A DNA stretch of 63,715 bases, filler included, from Kipferlia bialata (Eukaryota), in NCBI GenBank assembly GCA_003568945.1. It is 7 parts of 7 records of this genome, joined end to end, with 100 filler letters (N's around TTAATTAATTAA, not from the genome) between each part and the next. Parts side by side here need not be neighbours in the genome. Positions count along the whole stretch, not along the records: positions 44,402 to 55,391 come from BDIP01001318.1; 6 more parts are not named here. One strand, given 5' to 3'. Below, in pieces: positions 44,402-55,391 of this stretch. The notes below the pieces were generated by a model. The model did no database searches. It was not told the DNA's origin and saw only the letters and a list, made by a program, of their open reading frames with translations. A program made the translations under genes and the position numbers. The number at the start of each line of letters is the position of its first letter. The first letter of the stretch is position 1.

Positions 44402-44476
44402 CAGGTCATGGCCTCAGCATCGGCATGGGTGACCCAGGCTGAAATCAGATACATTTGTATATATATATATATATAT

Positions 44477-44507
<31 letters not shown>

Positions 44508-44568
44508 CCATGGCCTCAGCATCGGCATGGGTGATCCAGGCTGGGATGAGGGGTATATATATATACGT

Positions 44569-44601
<33 letters not shown>

Positions 44602-44908
44602 CAGGTCATGGCCTCGGCGTCGGCATGGGTGATCCAGGCTGGGATGAGGGGTATATACATATATACATATATATACATACATATATACATATATATACAT
44701 ATATTTACAGACATATATTTACATACACACTAGTTACTGGCAGCTGTGACCCATCTCTGGCTGTCTGTCCCATGGCAGCAGAGGATATATATATATATAT
44801 ATACTACCTCATATACTATCATATATACTATCTATACATATAATAGTAAGTGTATATACCCGGTAGCTGTGACCCATCTCTGGCTGTCTGTCCCATGGCA
44901 GCAGAGGT

Positions 44909-44941
<33 letters not shown>

Positions 44942-45092
44942 CATGTATGTATACTCTATATATACTAGTAATATATACACTACCCATACCTGGCAGTTGT
45001 GACCCATCTCTGGCTGTCTGTCCCATGGCAGCAGGGGGAGGGATGATGGCAGGGAACAGGGCATCCTGACCCCTAATATAAGGATATATATG

Positions 45093-45127
<35 letters not shown>

Positions 45128-45183
45128 GGAGAGAGAGATGATGATGATGGCAGGGAACAGGGCATCCTGACCCCTAATATCAG

Positions 45184-45234
<51 letters not shown>

Positions 45235-45757
45235 TGATGCACTCATACCTCTGGTCCTGTTCCCCCTGCTTCTTCTTCTTCTTCTCCCTCCCGTTGTTGT
45301 GCATGCCGTGTCGGCCTGGAGTCAGAGTTAGTATATACATATACATATTAACATATATATATACTAAGTGTGTCTAGAGATGAGAGATATAGAATGGTAT
45401 ATATAGTCCTCTCTCCCGTTGTTGTGCATGCCGTGTCTGCCTAGAGATGAGATTGACACGATAGACACCTCATACAGTATATATCTACTGTATATTAAGT
45501 ATTAGTATATATACATATAATAAGTACTATTCTTCTCTCTCCCGTTGTTGTGCATGCCGTGTCTGCCTGGAGTCAAGGTAAGAGAGATGAGACAGACACA
45601 TATAGTATATATACCTATTATACATACCAGTGTCAGGGAATTAGTCCTCTATCTCCCTCCACCTCATCATTAGTACATATGAATCTCTCTCTCTCTCTTC
45701 GGACTATACCCACACTCACCTTCATCATCGATCGAGTCCCTCGAGCTCTCCCCCACC

Positions 45758-45790
<33 letters not shown>

Positions 45791-47078
45791 ACAAACCCTT
45801 TGTATATATACAACACACCTGCATCATCGATTGAGTCCCCCGAGCTCTCCTCTGCCATCTCCCTGTTCCACATATCCTTCTCCTCCGCAGTCTGGCCCTG
45901 CTCCTGCTCCCCCTCCTCGTCTAGGTCATACTCCACACTCTGATAGTTAGATATATCGTGTAGAGAGAATTGTCTAGATGGTCTAGATGCTCTAGAAAAC
46001 ATACCTCCTTGGAGATGCCACTTCCAGAGCACAGGTTAGACTTGTGGCCCTCTCCCTCTGGCCTGTTCCTCTTCATGGCCTCAAAGTGACTCAGCACAGA
46101 GGCCAGCTGGTCCTCAATCTGGCGTGGGTTCGATTCTCGTCACTGATATATATTGCAGTATATATATACTTGTTATTGCAGTGGGATATACCTCAGTAGG
46201 CTTCTTCTTGTACACCGCTAGGAGCTCCTTGGCTAGGGCAAGGACCTGGGTGAGGGATAGGGGGAGATTGAGAGAGAGAGAGAGAGTGGGAAGTATCACC
46301 CATATTAGAGTGATATAACCAACTTGCAATATAACATAATTACATGTTGAGAGATATTACACACCTTCCCCACTGATGCCCTGATTGTCCTCTGCTCTGG
46401 GGTGTCACCTGTCTCCTAGGGGGTGAGATGCATGCATACATTCACATATATATACATACATATAGATGGGTCCTATCCTGCTATATAAACACACAGTCAT
46501 ATAGATATATATACTTAGCTACCTTGACATTGGACCTATGCAGCTGGGTCAGACACCTGTTACAATATATAGATATACATATACATAGATAGATATACAC
46601 TACACTATACACATATCTACCTTGACGTTTGACCTGTGCAGCTGGGTCAGACACCTGTTACAGGCATAGCATCCCCTGGAGTCAGAACAACTCTATCAAT
46701 AATATACCACAGAGTATCCTTTCATTATGCATACCTAGCCGAGTCGTATAGGGTGATGCTCTCACTCTGGGGGAACACCCTCTGACAGCCAGGACAGGTC
46801 CAGCCGGCATCCTGGCGTGAATACTAGAATTATTATGTGCTAGTAGAGACACTAACAGAGACAAACATATCAAGATGTCAATGGAAGAATAGGGCAGGTC
46901 CAGACGGCATCCTGGGGTCATAAAAGTACATAGTATATATACGGGTAAAGAATTAATATAGAATATCCCAGGGTCATTGTAATATACTGAAACCAATCAA
47001 CAATAAGGAGGATTGGGGCATGAGGCGAGGATGTAGCGTGGAGAGGACCCATACCTTCTGGCCCTCCTCCTTCATGAT

Positions 47079-47116
<38 letters not shown>

Positions 47117-47951
47117 TATGCATACTAGAGTGACTGGATATCGACATTGCCCCAGTGTAGCATAACTGTATTCCCTACCTTCTGTCCCTCCTCCTTCATG
47201 ATGATCTCCATACGCTTCACAACGACAAAGAGGAACCCTGAAATGAGAGAGAAAATGATGGTATACTATCAACAGATATTATGCCACTGTAGCAAAGAGC
47301 AGCAGATACGTACTGCCAATGTTTGTCTCATCCAGCACAAACTCCAGGACAGGGTGGCCCTTCTCATCCCTGACGTCAGAGGGAGGGAGAGAGAGATAAA
47401 GGGGGGAGGGAGAGAGAGACTCACTGAGAGAGTCACACTGCAGAGAGGTGATATACACATACACTCACCTGGACTGCTTAGTGACCAAGTGGTGTGAGAA
47501 GAACAGAGCCAGCGCAGACTCAGCCTGAGGGTTGGAAGAGAGAGAGAGATAGAGAGAGCCAGTACAGACTCGGCCTGAGGGTAGGAAGAGAAAGAATCAT
47601 GGAGTGTGTGTGAGGCAATGTAATAATTCGGGGGAGAGAGAGACAGATAGAGAGAGAGGAAGAGACCGGTACCTGGTTCTGACTGAGTCTGCTGTGACTG
47701 GAGATCTTGTCAGGGGTGGCCCTGGGATTAGTATATACATAGAGAGAGGGGGGGAAAGTAGAGACAGACACATTGAAGGTTGCTGATGGGGTGGGTCAGG
47801 GAAGAGAGAGTGGTCTCTCTACACACTACACAGTCCCTTACATACATCAGACAACACGCAATCACCTCCCGTGGTTTAGCAGAGCCAGCAGGATCTCGTA
47901 CTGAGTCCTGTTGTAGAAGATGTAGCCGATGTACCGGACCAGCAGCTCAAT
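44402..47951 (-). CDS. TFA1: Transcription initiation factor TFIIE alpha subunit (both ends truncated)
   Basis: Winged-helix start IELLVRYIGYIFYNRTQYEILLALLNHG (compare LAKYVIRGFY..EHALALDIL), FLFVVVKRMEIIMKEE, C4 zinc ribbon WTCPGCQRVF...LYDSARGCYACNRC, IEDQLASVLSHFEAMK, and SQLPAWVT (compare the LPxW motif), all in TFIIE-alpha order. Confidence 0.72.
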
Positions 47952-48099
47952 CTGGGGTGGGTATGTATCATCATAGAACAGGCAAAATAATAGGGTACCA
48001 ATAAGGAAGGGGGGGGGGGGGGGGGGGGGGGGAAAAAAAAAAAAATAAACCCCCCCCCCCCCTTCCCCCCCCCCCCCCCCCCCACCCCCCAACCCCCAG

Positions 48100-49763
48100 A
48101 TCTCCACTGATGCCTCTGCCCCTGCTAGGGACAAGGACACCTGGGACGGACTGGTGGCAGGGTGTGCGGCAGTCCCAGGGGTCACGCTGCAGGGTGCGTG
48201 TTGGTGTGGTGATCTCTCTGGTTGTTTGTATTCCATGCCTTGCTCCTCTCACCTCAGGTGTCCTGGCTGTGTGTGCTGTTGTGCTCCACCTAGGCAACGT
48301 CAGGTACAGTGGTGTGGTAGTATCCTAGTATTATTAACATCCCCCCCCCCCCTCCCACCCTAGGTTCAAGCAGAAGAGAGGACGTGTGGACCTGGTCACC
48401 TCCAAGAAGGACCCCACCATCCTGCACCTGACCAACCTGCTGAGGTGTGACACAGGCTCTCTGGCCACCCTTCTGACTAGGCAGCAGGGACCCCTCCCCC
48501 CAGACGTGACCTCGGCCCCCCACCTCACTCTGATGCAGGCAGAGGTCCACAGGGCAGGTGCGGCAGATACACTCACTCTCTTGATGTATATATAGACTAT
48601 ACTCACGCCAGGTGTGTGTGCCGCTCTCTTCCATGGCCTGGCCTCCGAAGTCATTGTGGGTCTCAACGATGCACAGCCCCTCCTGTCCCCACTGGTGCAG
48701 GGCAGGCCACAGACACCCCCAGTCGGCATCACCCTGCTGCTGTTGCCGTCCCCCCCTGTGTCGCCTGCACCCCTATCCGCTGCACTACTGAGAGATGCGG
48801 CACACAGACTAGCAGCCAGGTGGGTACAATATATATGTATCCGCTTACTCACCTGCCCACTCTCTTCTGACCCTAGGGACACTGAGAGGGGAGGCAGTGC
48901 CTCTGTAAGGGCCCTTCTAAGACAGGAGGGGGTGAGGGGGTTTGAGATACCCCCCACCCAGGAGGAAGTCCCCCCCCTCTGCCACCTGTGGGGAGGGGTG
49001 GCCAGCATACTCTCAGACATAGGTGCGCGCGTTAACAAGGGTGTACAGAGTGGTACCATTGTAACTGGGTATCTTTTCCACATGACATCTAACCCTTAGG
49101 CCACAGCGTGTCCTCGGGCAGTACCTCTGACGCTGGGGTGCCTGCATCCCTAGCCAGGGCACTCGACAGCCTAGAGACCAGGTGGGGGTGGTATACGAGA
49201 TCCTGAGTCCTAGAAGACAATACATCTACAGTCTCCTCTTCTCTCTCTGACCCCCAGGTACTCGTCCCTCCTAGGCCCCATCGATGCGTGTATAGAGGGA
49301 GGGTGTGTGGATAGGGCAGGGGACGATGCCGCAGGGGAGTCCCACATGCGCATGGTGGTGTCATTTGACAGGGAGGAGGCCCCTGCCACCAAGAGGCGCA
49401 GCAGTGACGCCGCCCCCATCACGTCCAACCCCCTTGCCGCGCTGAGCCAGCCCAAGGTGATGCCGCCCCTGCCACCTGTGCCTGTCAAGGAGGGCACGTA
49501 CACCAAGGCGAAGGAGACAGACAGGGAGGGGGAGGTGGATACTGCCCTGGTCCTGGGCCCTGATACTGTCACCCTCCCAGGCCTCGACATGACCACCCCA
49601 GTGCCCCCCCTCGCCCTCAAGCTAGTCAACCTCTGCAGGGGGGAGACAATGTGGGGGGCGGGGCGGGACTCCCCCGTGACAGCCTCTCTGGCCACTCTAT
49701 ACAGACTGCTATCTGGTAGGGGTCTAGAGGGGGACTCAGACGTGTCCAGCCCAGCCAGCCCAG

Positions 49764-49803
<40 letters not shown>

Positions 49804-52800
49804 GTATATAGATCTACCTAGACTCTCCCTTCCGTTCCAATGCTATATCGACTCACTACGTGTGTCTTGACTGACCCCTAGGATGCGTGGCCGGCGTCAC
49901 AGCTGATCTCTCTGTCATCAGAAGGGTGACTGAGGGACATGCAGTAAGAGGGCACCTGCCCTTGGGCATGCAGGGGTTCGGTCAGGTACTTGGGATGTGT
50001 GTTATCTATTTGAGTGCTACCTGTGCGTATCGTACATCATCTTATCTTCCTGACCCCTAGGAGATGTCGGATCCTGAGTCCTCCGACTCCCCTCTCTTCA
50101 CAGCTCGTGCCCTCTCCGATATGGACGCGCTCTCCCTGGACACACTCTGTCAGGTATCAGCTGTCACTCGTGTCTGTAGACTGTGCATATTCTATTAAGT
50201 GCCCCCCCCCCCCCACTCCCCTCACCCCTTAGGGCCAGGCCCCCTGGGGTGTGTGCCGCATACCGGATGTATTAGCCATCCCCCACTCGCAGCAGGAGAG
50301 GGATGCCACGAGGAGGGAGACTGACTGTGTGCTGTGTGTGTCTGCCGGTGCCACCTCTGCACCCCCTGTGCACGCCATGCCCCACCCTCTCTTCCTCTCC
50401 CAGTACAGTCTGCTGTTACAGAGGCTGCAGCGGCTGGTGCGGGATGGGTCTGTCAAGCTGCACCCCTCTAGGGCACCCGGTGCACTGAGTGCGGCTGTGA
50501 CCAAGGCCCTGGCCACCGACCCCGTCACACCCACCTCGGGTGTGGTGTCTGCCGTGCTGGGGCACCTCCCGGACATAGCCATAGTCACAGGCACAGTGGC
50601 CGTGGGGTCCACCCTCTGCTTCGTCACACCCAGTGGCACAGGGCATCTCGACAGGTATGAAGTGCAGATATATATATATATATACTCCTCTCTCCTCCAT
50701 ATCCCAATGTGTGTCTCTCCCAGCGTGATACCCACCGCAGGGCCGTGTCTCTGGAGGTGACCAGAAGGGTGTCCATCATCCAGGCCCACTTCAGAGGGAG
50801 GAAGGACCGAGTGGAAGTGGACAGACAGGTGGGTGTGGTACACGGAATACATAGGATATTCCATTCACCCCTCCCCCCCCCTCCATCTCCCTCCCACCCC
50901 CAGGTTGTCAATATCATCAAGGTACAGGGTATGGTCAGACGCTTCCTGGCCAACCTCAAGGTGTGTACACATACGTGTTTAGTGACCTCAGCTCTTCTGT
51001 CTCCTCTCCCCACTGACACTGATACTTGACACTGACGCTGACCCCCAGGCCAATAAGGAGAGGGCCGTCAAGGAGAGAGAGAGGCGCCGGATAGCTGCGC
51101 TGGCCCAGTGGGGTAGGGGGGTCACGGTCAGGAACACCCAGGTACCATGGTAGATATGATGGGATACGTCTTACACAGACACTCACCGCTCAGCTAGCCA
51201 GACGCACCTTCCTAGCCATGCGCGATGCCCTGGTCTGTGCCAGCAGGGCAGACCAGCAGTACAGACAGCACCTCATGGCCACCACGGCTAGGGAGTGCTT
51301 CGCGGCATGGCAGGTTAGTGCACATATGTATATACTGTCCCTACATTGTGTGTGACCCCATGTTATACTATATATTATATTTTATTATTCCCCACCCACC
51401 CCAGGCTGTGTCAGAGAGACATGCCAGGGGAAGGGCCCAGGGGAGGCGCCTCTCGCACCGGCTGGTGTACAGGGTGCTGTCTGTGTGGCGCAACGAGGCC
51501 TCTGCCCTGTGTGCTGCCAAGGCCTGTGCCGCCATGGGTGTGTGTGACGAGGAGGGGCATGTCTGCAGAGAGCAGTGGGGCAGAGAGGTGATGCTGCCCC
51601 TGTACCTAGCCGTGGCTGCTGAGTCTGCTCTGGCCAGTGAGACCAAGAGGGATGCAGTCACCCTGGGCTACATGGGGGAGAGGCAGGCCATGCGCAGAGA
51701 GGACCCCAGGCGGCAAGGGCTGGTGGTGGGGGCTGATCATGAGCAGACATCGCTGACAGGGGTTGTGGGTGTTGGTGCTCCACTAGGATACAGGTCACCG
51801 TCCCTCTCTGCATCTGCCTCTATGGTCGGATGTGTGGGTGTGGGAGAGGGAGAGGTGCAGACCCCCAAGCCCAGACGCATACCACGCAGAGACCCATCTG
51901 CTGTCAACCCCAAGTCTACCATCAAGGTACACCCTGTATTCATGTAGTAACACACTGTGTATGCGTATTGTCTCCATTTATTCCCCCTCACCCCCAGACG
52001 TCCCTTGCCAGACAGACCCTGGATAGACAGGCCACGGCCATGAGGCTGGGGGAGACACGGGTGCCCTTGTCAGAGGAGGGGGAGGGTACCACTGAGGCAC
52101 GTGCATGTGCATACCCTACCCAGGACACCCCGACCCCCCTGCACCGGAGGGTGACCAAGCTGCAGCAGAGGTGTGACGCCAATAGGAAGGCGGGTAGGCA
52201 GCTCGGAAGGTTCGAGGCCCAGGTGAACGGGGCTGTGTATGGGGGATCAGGCCCAATCGCATCGACAGAGGGAGAGAGAGAGGGCGGCGTCGAGGAGCAG
52301 CAGGAGAGAGAGAGAGAGCTTGCAGAGCAGTGGGCGGAGGGGCGCCATCTGTTTGTAGCGTCTGGGAGTGCATCCCCTGAGGCGGAGAGAGAGAAGGGTG
52401 AGTATGAGAGAGGGCCCAGCGTAGAGTCCTCTCTCTACTCCCTAACCGCACCCCTAGACAGTGAGGGTACCTGTATGGATACCTATCAGAGTGGAGTTGA
52501 GGCTGCTGGGGTGGAGGCAGATGCGGAAGAGATTGGTGCTGAGTCGGCTGAGGTTCCTCCCGATGGTATCCCTGCTGTCGCAGATATGGCTGTGGATATG
52601 CCCGAGCACCCGGAGACTGACGCTGATACAGACATACATGTTGAGGAGGGGGTCCTTGGGTCCAGTGAAGAGACGGCCCATGTTGGCGGGTCAGTCTCTG
52701 CTGTACAGACAGACACCCCTGAGACACATGCCCTGGATATGAATATGGATGTGGATAGGGGTATGGATATGGATATGGGTATGGGTATGGGTTCACAGAC

Positions 52801-54598
52801 CACCCCCAGTGCCCAAGTGGCCTCTGTCACACCTGACACGTCCATACACACACCCGGTGCTCAACAGTCACAGGCTGCACCCTCCCCAATGTCCCCTAGT
52901 CACTCTCTCCCCTCTCTCTCTCTATACACCAGGGAGGAACAGGGTATGGGGCACACCTCTGTGGGTCTGTCCATGGGTGACCTATGCTCATCAGAGGGTA
53001 TCAGTATGTTACAGACAGCACCCCCGGTATCAGGTGTCATTGTTCCAGAGACACAGCCCATGGGTAGTGACAGGGATGGAGCTGTTGGCGTCACATTGGG
53101 AGAGACTCAGAATGGCGTTGGGTCAGGCATTGAGGGTGTAGGGGAGGTGGCCCAGACTGAGAGGACAGGGGGACTGGAGGGTGTGCTGGCCGGTGTGAGG
53201 GCCAGAGCCAACAGCTACTCCCCCTCCCCCTCCCCCTCCCTGTCCATGACCCAGACGGGGGCACCTGTATCCACCCCCCAACAGTCTGCCTCCCCTGTCC
53301 CCTCCCCCCTGGCCGTCGTCCCACCCCCCTCTGCCACCAGTCCCCACATGGCCAGGATACAGTACATGCTCTCCCTGGCCCAGAGGAGAGAGAGGGGGAC
53401 ACGCGTGGCAGCCCCTAAGGTGGACACTGGCAGTAGGGCACCCCCACCAAGTAGTCTCAATGGCAGAGAGAGGTCTAGTGGCAGAGGGAGGGTGGGTGGG
53501 CAGAACATCAACCCCCAAAGGGCCTGTGACCCCACCCCAGTGTCAGTGTCTGAGTCAGGGTCAGTGGCAAGAAGGGGTGCAGTCCGCCGTGCCTCCCTTG
53601 GCAGTGCTAGGAATGGGGTCAGGTCCCCTCACATTGCACAGAGTATGAGAGAGCATGGGATAGGGACACCTACCAGAGACAGAAGTGTGGTGGGAGGTGG
53701 CAAGAGGGATGCTGTTCACCATGTCCCTAGTGTGGATGCCCCTGTGGATAGTGACTCCATGTCTGCCAGTGAGTATGTGGAGGCCCTGGTCAGAAGGACA
53801 AGACAGGAGGTGAGGAGGGAGAGGGGTGTGCTATCGGGTGAGAACGCCTCTCCATCTACAATGTATGTCCCGCGAGTGGCAGGGTCAACGAGAGAGGTCG
53901 AGAGAGAAAGAGCAGAGAGGCGCCAGGTGTCGAGAAGGGCTACCCCCTACATGGGTGTGACTGAGGCAGAGAGGGCAGAGTTCAGACGCAGCAGACATGG
54001 GTCCCTCCCTGGCCGCCCTGTGTCTGGGGTGGGTGTTGGGGATAGGACCCAGGGGTACCAGGCCTCAGGGGGGGTGGGGGGTATCAGTAGGCAGACACGT
54101 GACTATGTGACGCCAAGCGTGGCAGCATACGCCCCTCAGACACCCTCTGCCGTGTCCGTTGCCACTAGGAGAAGGGCCTCTGCGTCACCCACCGTGGCCT
54201 ATCCCATGGGCCACGGTGTCAGTGGGTTGGCCCATGCCTCCCCCTCCCCCCATGTCCCTACCCCTACCAGACCCCACGACCTGGGCCAGAAGGGGCACTT
54301 TGGGTATGTCCCCGGGGCCTGTCTAGGGGGGGAGGTACCCGTCGCCGGGGTGGTGTCTCCAGGGAGGAAGCCCAAGGTGTCGTCCTACTCCTCCCTCCAC
54401 AGCACAGACAGAGAGAGACACAGAGAGAGGGGTGTCAAGGGACGGGGCCCGGCCAGGGGTGCCGGGTCTGGGTATGGCCAGGTCCACAGGGCACAGACAC
54501 AGCGGACACAGCGGAGACGGTCTGCCCCAGGGCCAGGGGCCTCCGCCTCCCCCTCCGCCTCCTGGTACTCTGCCAACCACAGCCTGGCAGGGGACTAG
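48100..54598 (+). CDS. Highly divergent myosin-like protein: C-terminal part of motor, converter, 2 IQ motifs, Sfi1-like repeats, ~870-aa disordered tail (5'-truncated)
   Basis: In-phase exons ARDKDTWDGLVAG | VLAVCAVVLHLGNVRF | HLTNLLRCDTGSLATLLTRQ...LTLMQAEVHRA | GVCAALFHGLASEVIVGLN | LRQEGV...GVASILSD | HAMPHPLFLSQYSLL | VAVGSTLCFV...HLD | RAVSLEVTRRVSIIQAHFRGRKDR | IIKVQGMVRRFLA. These are collinear with myosin head landmarks. Stop TAG 54598. Confidence 0.78.
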
Positions 54599-54846
54599 CC
54601 GGGTTGGCTTGTGGTTGGGTGTGGGAGATTGTTGTATGTATTCTATGTGTATTGTATTTATGTGTAGTTTTGATGTTGTGTTTCGGTGTGTTTCGGTGTG
54701 TGAGGATCCTTCCAATAGAGTGCTCAAGAGAGTTGGTATTTGTTCTTTCTAGGGGTTCAGCAGATCTCCCGGTACCCTGGCCATGGCTCTTGCATCCCCA
54801 CCTGCCCACACACACACACCTACCCTCTCTTGCAGATACACCCTGT

Positions 54847-55226
54847 ATGATAGCTCTAGGGATCGAGGGGTCTGCCAACAAGCTGGGCATAGGCATTGTG
54901 ACAGAGACCGGCGAGGTGTGTGTCGATAGTATTCATACCCCTTTTTCCTATATCTACCTATGCTCATCCTCTAGGTTCTTGCCAATGTGCGTGACACATA
55001 CGTAGCCCCTATGGGCGAGGGCTTCATGCCCAGGGAGACAGCCGAGCACCACAGACAACTGGTCATCCCACTGGGTGGGTGTATGTGTATGCCCTATAGT
55101 GTATCCCTCTCTCCCTCTCTTGCCTCACCCCCAGTTAAGAAGGCACTGGCAGAGGCCAAGCTCACCCCTGCTGACATCACTATTGTATGTTACACAAGAG
55201 GCCCGGGGATAGGGGCCCCGCTCCAG
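54847..55226 (+). CDS. KAE1: KEOPS t6A threonylcarbamoyltransferase Kae1/OSGEP, N-terminal exons (3'-truncated)
   Basis: [45 protein letters not shown]|...[15 protein letters not shown]; exons 54847-54915, 54975-55074, 55135-55226. Confidence 0.95.
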
Positions 55227-55353
55227 GTAGATCCTAAGACACTTCTCAATCTCTCTTATCTTTGCCTCTGGGCTCACACTTACCGCTACGGGATCAATTA
55301 TCATGCCTACTGTCAATAGTTGCCCTTGTTCTAGCCGTCTCTCTCTCTCTCTC

Positions 55354-55391
<38 letters not shown>

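What the first reader, a model, noticed from the sequence alone, without database searches (positions are those of the whole stretch)
48100..50960. Cryptic, probably catalytically degenerate myosin in an apparent metamonad
Seen: in-phase spliced exons reproduce the ordered landmarks of a myosin head. These are VLAVCAVVLHLGNVRF (consensus LAAILHLGNIxF), LLRCDTGSLATLLTRQ (LLGxxxxxLxxxLTxR), QAEVHRAGVCAALFHGLASEVIVGLN (QAxxxRDALAKALYxRLFxWLVxxIN), LRQEGV (YxxEGI), GVASILSD (GILSLLDE), PHPLFLSQYSLL (FxEFxxRYxxL) and converter VAVGSTLCFV (xxGxTKVF), followed by IQAHFRGRKDR and VQGMVRRFLA. At the switch II position (IGVLDIxGFE) the sequence reads GITLLLLPSP, lacking the Asp, Gly and Glu. Established: Giardia and Trichomonas are standard examples of eukaryotes with no myosin. 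Inference: if this genome is a fornicate, this is a relict pseudo-motor, perhaps structural, that standard searches may miss. The P-loop and switch I exons are not in the window.
Basis: partly seen in the sequence, partly recalled or inferred. Interest (0 to 1): 0.9.

Follow-up and report, generated by a model that had tools for sequence, protein, structure and literature searches.

The report
Eroded myosin relic in a fornicate
A free-living relative of Giardia, from a group described as having lost myosin entirely, carries a spliced gene that still matches parts of the myosin head and neck but lacks the motor's core motifs, so it is likely a non-motor relic, predicted to serve as a scaffold for centrin- or calmodulin-type proteins.

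Summary
The gene is Kipferlia bialata (Fornicata) KIPB_005576. Sixteen exons (48100-54598) give 1791 aa without a stop; an RNA contig confirms the six introns tested. A head-only profile from 81 myosins matches aa 31-121 (P 2e-8; 0 of 1000 shuffles come close). A converter sits exactly 30 residues before IQ1, as in 138 of 146 myosins, here (P 9e-4) and in a paralog, KIPB_004240 (P 1e-5). Between them, aa 133-490 match nothing: no DxxGxE (present in 239 of 239 myosins), and 10% proline. Three Sfi1-like repeats and a long low-complexity tail follow the two IQ motifs. The deposited gene model omits the 103 residues that carry the signal, so Pfam misses it. The P-loop is untested: the scaffold appears mis-joined at 48009-48098, but the RNA contig runs 591 nt further. 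Myosin descent about 0.9; non-motor about 0.85; centrin-type scaffold role inferred.

The parts
48009..48098 (.). poly-G / poly-A / poly-C stretch; probable mis-join of the scaffold, cutting off the 5' exons of the gene
   Evidence: no in-frame start upstream of 48100; the DNA contig ends 32 nt upstream of 48100 while the RNA contig runs 591 nt further; a minus-strand gene points away from the same place, also starting with an intron 3' end; scaffolds in this window begin or end in such tracts. Mis-join is inferred.
48100..54598 (+). KIPB_005576, 16 exons in the window, 1791 aa open frame, 5' end missing. Exons: 48100-48193, 48258-48303, 48364-48557, 48612-48819, 48877-49022, 49100-49181, 49258-49763, 49882-49985, 50061-50153, 50233-50654, 50741-50828, 50904-50960, 51049-51141, 51194-51313, 51405-51926, 51998-54598
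   Evidence: first six introns RNA-supported; aa 104-1791 identical to the deposited protein
48127..48673 (+). upper-50K part of the myosin head (aa 10-132; LHLGN at 48284-48298 through helix O), the best-kept head remnant
   Evidence: HMM 18.8 bits, P 2.3e-8; HHalign probability 88.75; Z 9.7; aa 32-135 alone P 1.3e-9
48100..48532 (+). 103 codons left out of the deposited gene model, which starts at the Met at 48533
   Evidence: the deposited head alone is not reported by the same HMM
48722..48754 (+). switch II candidate 1 (VGITLLLLPSP, aa 149-159): fits spacing from LHLGN, lacks D, G and E
   Evidence: spacing 112 against 91-111 in 126 myosins; no significant score
48929..48949 (+). switch II candidate 2 (GVRGFEI, aa 199-205): keeps GFE, lacks D, needs a 50-residue insertion
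   Evidence: HHalign register; best place for that segment but Z 0.8 or less
48674..50153 (+). aa 133-491: eroded and expanded middle of the head (relay, lower 50K, loop 2); about 190 extra residues overall between LHLGN and the converter
   Evidence: no significant segment; proline 10.1%, aromatic 2.5% against 0.5-4.9% and 9.3-14.1% in the 200 residues after switch II of myosins; spacing
50380..50654 (+). converter (PHPLFLSQYSLL 50380-50415; VAVGSTLCFV 50596-50625)
   Evidence: anchored test P 9e-4, best of 13 registers; three-stranded sheet in an MSA-guided model, pLDDT 77-86 (circular)
50775..50951 (+). two IQ motifs (50775-50807, 50916-50951)
   Evidence: Pfam IQ E 0.0043 for the first, below the curated cut-off; Z 11.0 against myosin IQ pairs
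51106..51497 (+). three Sfi1-like repeats (F/L-x2-W/M ending at aa 720, 750, 779; spacing 30 and 29; no proline in aa 641-790)
   Evidence: 6 of 10000 shuffles, region chosen after seeing it; consensus from PMC2173958 passages; no Pfam Sfi1 hit
51639..54595 (+). low-complexity G/S/A/R-rich tail, about 960 aa, probably disordered
   Evidence: composition; no Pfam family

Best explanation
KIPB_005576 is a spliced Kipferlia gene likely descended from a myosin heavy chain, which has kept the upper-50K helices, the converter and a two-IQ neck but no switch II or relay motif, so it is probably no longer a motor and is predicted to act as a rod-like scaffold that binds calmodulin- or centrin-type EF-hand proteins. 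Shown: the gene structure, the three myosin-like parts in the right order, the absence of DxxGxE, NExLQ, HYAG and RCxKP. Inferred: without switch II and the relay helix, ATP hydrolysis cannot be coupled to a lever swing (established myosin mechanism, from my own knowledge); the proline-rich middle is probably unfolded; the converter caps a long helix carrying two IQ and three Sfi1-like sites, which would load about five EF-hand proteins; the basic disordered tail would tether it to the flagellar-root or basal-body cytoskeleton. My odds: myosin descent 0.9, non-motor given that 0.9, EF-hand scaffold role given both about 0.75.
For: Head-only HMM from 81 myosins, P 2.3e-8, no shuffle near it; a second HMM from 30 mostly viral myosins hits the same residues, 6.9 bits, 0 of 1000 shuffles. 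Converter at IQ1 minus 30 in 138 of 146 myosins, and in both Kipferlia paralogs (P 9e-4 and 1e-5). ESM Atlas features put myosin head + IQ first for both paralogs (0.90, 0.91), and 9 of 10 structure rows for the paralog's alignment-free model are clusters carrying Myosin_head (all under the naming bar). Motif loss: DxxGFE 239 of 239, NExLQ 233, HYA[GD] 227, RCxKP 222 of 239 fetched myosins; none in aa 1-640. Intact 1791-aa frame and spliced RNA contig. The paralog keeps the same converter-IQ-repeat block at 33% identity.
Against: Pfam Myosin_head does not hit the deposited protein or single exons. phmmer over 1.84 billion proteins finds no myosin, nor over PDB sequences. The alignment-free AlphaFold model is poor (pLDDT 39.6) and finds no myosin. 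ESM shared-feature counts (137, 149 of 256) are under the 170 typical of same-family hits. The P-loop and switch I were not seen. Sfi1-like repeats are few, degenerate and picked after inspection. No binding, localisation or activity data exist.
Confidence: 0.6

Rival explanations
1. It is a myosin-derived pseudo-motor of the myosin-18 type: the head still folds, binds actin and perhaps nucleotide, and acts as an actin tether rather than a centrin scaffold.
For: By eye, collinear traces of SH2/SH1 (PWGVCRIP, LFLSQYSLL) and of the lower 50K survive; myosin-18 binds actin without ATPase activity (PMC7900500 passages).
Against: The lower 50K, which carries most of the actin interface (own knowledge), is the least conserved part and is proline-rich and poor in aromatics.
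Confidence: 0.17
2. It is an extremely divergent but active myosin motor, with switch II at GVRGFE after a 50-residue insertion.
For: GFE occurs once in the head, followed by LC at near-canonical distance and by LDxxE...LLxxID; the P-loop is unseen and could be intact; the lever is well kept.
Against: The Asp of switch II is present in 239 of 239 myosins and absent in both registers; the relay motif is absent; this register scores no better than shuffles.
Confidence: 0.08
3. It is not a myosin descendant: an IQ/Sfi1-type helical protein whose N-terminal helices resemble the myosin upper 50K by chance.
For: No Pfam, PDB-sequence or large-library myosin hit; the locus was picked from a very large scan because it looked like myosin.
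Against: Two independent signals in the right order: upper 50K (E 0.0015 with default filters for 17,389 proteins) and the converter register in two paralogs.
Confidence: 0.09
4. It is a real myosin relic but foreign to fornicate ancestry: a contaminant or a late transfer, for example from a giant virus or another protist.
For: No homologue outside Kipferlia was found; giant-virus myosins exist.
Against: Intron-rich, with the same short introns and C-rich acceptors as the adjacent KAE1/TsaD gene; a diverged paralog in the same genome; the genome came from a culture with one food bacterium (PMC5874029 passages); cellular myosins score higher than the mostly viral set (18.8 against 6.9 bits). 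A transfer long ago is not excluded, and no tree could be built.
Confidence: 0.06

Closest known systems
Myosin superfamily, motor domain PF00063 with IQ neck PF00612
   Same: Upper-50K helical stretch, converter at the canonical distance from IQ1, two IQ motifs, in the canonical order.
   Different: No DxxGxE, relay, HYAG or RCxKP motif; about 190 extra residues in the head; under Pfam's detection; tail of Sfi1-like repeats and a long low-complexity region, an architecture I did not meet in the papers searched.
Myosin-18A/B (ATPase-dead myosins; PMC7900500, passages read)
   Same: Myosin descent, two IQ motifs, motor activity lost or predicted lost, structural role.
   Different: Myosin-18 has a few active-site substitutions in an easily recognised, actin-binding head and a coiled-coil tail; here whole elements of the head are eroded beyond profile detection.
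Sfi1p / hSfi1 centrin-binding repeat proteins (PMC2173958, passages read)
   Same: F/L-x2-W repeats spaced 23-35 residues apart in a proline-free helix; that paper itself likens them to myosin IQ necks.
   Different: Only three degenerate repeats (two clear in the paralog), no Pfam Sfi1 match, and they follow a myosin converter and IQ motifs.
KIPB_004240 (GIQ83001.1), Kipferlia paralog
   Same: Converter, two IQ, Sfi1-like repeats and short tail motifs; 33% identity over aa 509-673 of the deposited protein, E 2.9e-10.
   Different: 701 aa as deposited, beginning near the SH1 region; whether it is truly headless or another cut gene model was not testable.

Membership tests
Myosin superfamily (by descent) | Sequence homology to the motor domain | tested here: met
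   aa 31-121, P 2.3e-8 with a head-only HMM, shuffles at most -0.2 bits; partial only, Pfam itself does not report it
Myosin superfamily (by descent) | Converter followed by IQ lever at the canonical register | tested here: met
   G at Q-30, F at Q-25, L-D at Q-16/-15; P 9e-4, paralog P 1e-5
Myosin motor (functional member) | P-loop GESGxGKT | not testable with these tools
   expected 157-173 residues before LHLGN, i.e. upstream of the window's first exon; no genome held; the RNA contig's upstream 591 nt could not be read
Myosin motor (functional member) | Switch I NxNSSRFG | not testable with these tools
   lies in the same missing 5' part
Myosin motor (functional member) | Switch II DxxGxE | tested here: not met
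   no D..G.E in aa 1-640; 239 of 239 fetched myosins have it; one GFE at aa 202 without the Asp
Myosin motor (functional member) | Relay helix (NExLQ), HYAG strand, RCxKP and SH2/SH1 motifs | tested here: not met
   absent as motifs; profile segments no better than shuffles
Myosin motor (functional member) | Complete motor-domain fold | tested here: inconclusive
   single-sequence model pLDDT 39.6; MSA-guided model confident only from the converter on and misaligned N-terminally; Foldseek rows all myosins but E 0.016 or worse; VIA best Z 8.3, rmsd 3.6, 111 aligned, tied with coiled coils; both circular
Myosin motor (functional member) | Actin-activated ATPase and motility | not testable with these tools
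   needs protein
Sfi1-repeat centrin-binding proteins | Repeats A-x7-LL-x3-F/L-x2-W-K/R, 23-35 apart, low proline | tested here: inconclusive
   three relaxed matches at 30 and 29 spacing, 0% proline; none is a full consensus match; no Pfam hit
Sfi1-repeat centrin-binding proteins | Direct centrin binding | not tested

The most novel reading that the evidence does not exclude
Fornicates did not delete myosin but converted it: the motor eroded while the converter and lever were kept and extended with Sfi1-type repeats, giving a family of centrin-loaded structural proteins of the flagellar apparatus, with head-less converter-IQ-repeat descendants still hidden in Giardia, Spironucleus and other 'myosin-free' metamonads.
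Probability: 0.25. Interest if true: 0.88.

Novelty: new variant of a known kind. Interest (0 to 1): 0.7.

Why it matters
[quoted passage not shown] A spliced myosin-derived gene with a paralog in a free-living fornicate suggests loss by erosion and change of job rather than deletion, shows a motor domain caught far along that path, and gives a query (converter-IQ-Sfi1-like block) for finding remnants in the parasites. It also shows how the gap arose: short exons, a cut scaffold and a gene model that drops the informative residues. The claim is limited by not knowing whether other free-living metamonads have ordinary myosins.

Tried and rejected
No whole genome is held, so the upstream scaffold and other Kipferlia myosins could not be searched. 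Pfam on 10 single exons: only a sub-threshold IQ and a weak DUF6812. phmmer of deposited aa 1-693 over 1.84 billion proteins: 3 hits, itself, the paralog and one repeat protein that I reject as chance. PDB sequences: 0 hits. Metagenome contigs: 597 pattern matches, none confirmed. Six-frame scan of 2430 unspliced pieces of the window: best E 1.5, at the LHLGN exon; no P-loop piece. One global alignment over the whole head failed to cross the insertion (Z 3.0). MAFFT misaligned the partial head to full-length myosins; alignment A4 was therefore not used. Runs X3 and X4 showed no contig on the stretch, which is no evidence. No class assignment or tree: the fetched 239 myosins are mostly giant-virus and MyTH4-type, and only about 120 residues align. 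Earlier findings of the scan: none returned. Paper searches for a report of this gene or of fornicate myosins (listings only, except the papers cited) found none; the genome paper's text and 3 supplements do not mention myosin. Subscription papers and unseen supplements may bear on this. Pseudogene rejected: intact frame, spliced RNA contig.
Full report
Identity. The window is seven scaffolds joined by linkers; the finding lies on 44402-55391 (10,990 nt). The exon 50233-50652 matches one protein at 100%: KIPB_005576 of Kipferlia bialata, 1688 aa, on a contig of 10,990 nt. Kipferlia is a Carpediemonas-like fornicate, Metamonada. A KAE1/TsaD gene starts at 54847 on the same scaffold.

Gene structure. 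Sixteen exons from 48100 to 54598, separated by 15 GT-AG introns of 52-118 nt, give 1791 codons and one stop. One 6109-nt contig of run X2 (RNA by guess, spliced in fact; one sample) skips all six introns in the stretch laid, 48100-49760. The deposited model starts at an internal Met and drops 103 residues. The RNA contig continues 591 nt upstream of 48100, whereas the DNA contig stops 32 nt upstream, in a poly-C tract. No in-frame start precedes 48100, and a minus-strand gene leaves the same spot, also beginning with an intron end. I infer a mis-join at 48009-48098, so the 5' exons lie on another scaffold.

Is it a myosin? Routine searches say no: Pfam gives only a weak IQ, PDB sequences 0 hits, 1.84 billion representatives 3 hits and no myosin. 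I fetched 239 myosins and built head-only profiles without IQ. From 81 of 124 mainly cellular sequences, the HMM matches aa 31-121 at 18.8 bits, P 2.3e-8; the best of 1000 shuffles scores -1.4 and of 1000 local shuffles -0.2; HHalign gives 88.75%. A profile from 30 of 120 mostly viral sequences hits the same residues more weakly (6.9 bits, 0 of 1000 shuffles). With default filters and a proteome of 17,389 the corrected protein scores E 0.0015, while the deposited head is not reported at all. Unspliced six-frame pieces reach only E 1.5. This explains why it was missed.

Second, independent signal. In 138 of 146 myosins with a recognisable converter, the Gln of IQ1 lies exactly 30 residues after the converter Gly. 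Scoring only the 26 positions before the IQ, at that fixed register, KIPB_005576 is reached by 87 of 100,000 random draws and its paralog KIPB_004240 by 1 of 100,000; in both it is the best of 13 registers, though far below true myosins (1.7 and 9.3 against 29-57). Unanchored, the converter was not significant. ESM Atlas features rank myosin head + IQ first for both paralogs (0.90 and 0.91, with 137 and 149 shared features, under the 170 typical of same-family hits), and 9 of 10 structure rows for the paralog's own Atlas model are clusters carrying Myosin_head, all under the naming bar. AlphaFold without an alignment was uninformative. With myosins as alignment it built a converter sheet and a long lever that matches myosins weakly; that test is circular and I give it little weight.

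What is lost. DxxGFE is in 239 of 239 fetched myosins, NExLQ in 233, HYA[GD] in 227, RCxKP in 222; none occurs in aa 1-640. Profile segments for switch II, relay, lower 50K and SH2/SH1 score like shuffles, also when confined to the expected region. Two registers compete. I cannot choose between them. Residues 133-490 hold 10.1% proline and 2.5% aromatics against 0.5-4.9% and 9.3-14.1% in the 200 residues after switch II of myosins (aromatics are also low, 2.3%, in the well-matching aa 1-132, so proline is the better sign), and the head is about 190 residues too long. A folded lower 50K is doubtful. The P-loop is expected 157-173 residues before LHLGN, inside the unread 591 nt; its state is unknown.

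Neck and tail. Two IQ motifs (Z 11.0) are followed by F/L-x2-W/M at aa 720, 750 and 779 in a proline-free helix (6 of 10,000 shuffles, region chosen after inspection). This resembles the centrin-binding Sfi1 repeat, A-x7-LL-x3-F/L-x2-W-K/R spaced 23-35 apart (PMC2173958, passages), without a full consensus match. The paralog shares the block (33% identity, E 2.9e-10) with two such repeats. About 960 low-complexity residues end the protein.

Mechanism. Shown: gene, splicing, three myosin-like parts in order, loss of the core motifs. Inferred from the established myosin cycle (own knowledge): without switch II and relay, hydrolysis cannot drive the converter, so it is probably not a motor. What selection kept in both paralogs is the converter-capped helix with EF-hand binding sites, so the most likely job is a calmodulin/centrin-loaded strut in the flagellar or basal-body cytoskeleton (0.6). 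Rivals: myosin-18-like actin tether (0.17), chance likeness (0.09), active motor (0.08), foreign origin (0.06).

Against the literature. Passages read: PMC3942036 (complete loss in metamonads, by Pfam gathering threshold), PMC5583752 (absent in Giardia, Trichomonas, Spironucleus; breadth open), PMC6759080 (absent in Monocercomonoides; Kipferlia not compared), PMC5874029 (no mention of myosin in text or 3 supplements; about 35% of BUSCO hits fragmented at scaffold edges), PMC7900500 (myosin-18), PMC9010356, PMC11285859, PMC10846614, PMC8422661 (nothing on this gene). Nine listing searches showed no report of it. I recall, without a call, that Anaeramoeba (Metamonada) protein records may carry myosin names; if so, the novelty narrows from Metamonada to Fornicata. 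Whether Kipferlia has ordinary myosins was not testable.

Verdict. A real, expressed, myosin-derived gene in a lineage held to be myosin-free; it fails the membership test for a functional motor on switch II and relay, and passes for descent. New variant of a known kind; interest 0.7.

Noticed in passing
window 44402-47951, minus strand: A multi-exon gene whose first visible exon (47951-47866, IELLVRYIGYIF...) follows an intron 3' end and points away from the poly-G/poly-C tract; its 5' end seems missing too. Exon-intron units near 44402-45570 are repeated in near-identical pairs.
   Followed up: partly
window 54847-55391, plus strand: 5' part of a KAE1/TsaD gene (Pfam TsaD E 2.8e-6 on one exon), starting 249 nt after the stop codon and cut by the scaffold end in a poly-C tract.
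   Followed up: partly
P0002 (KIPB_004240, GIQ83001.1): Paralog annotated as hypothetical; its first 50 residues resemble the myosin SH1-converter junction by eye (KGGLVNR...THSAFASKWYVL); only P 0.027 by HMM.
   Followed up: partly
whole window: Seven scaffolds, most beginning or ending in poly-G, poly-C or dinucleotide tracts; intronic homopolymers seem to fragment this assembly and hence its gene models.
   Followed up: no
L003, L004, L007, L008, L009, L014: Viral contigs with intronless myosin genes whose P-loop to switch II distance is shortened (226-248 residues) and that lack the LxLGN motif.
   Followed up: no
aa 920-945 of P0001 and aa 581-615 of P0002: A short motif (E/D-x-W-A-E/D-G-R-x-L) is conserved between the two otherwise unalignable tails; a possible binding site.
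   Followed up: no
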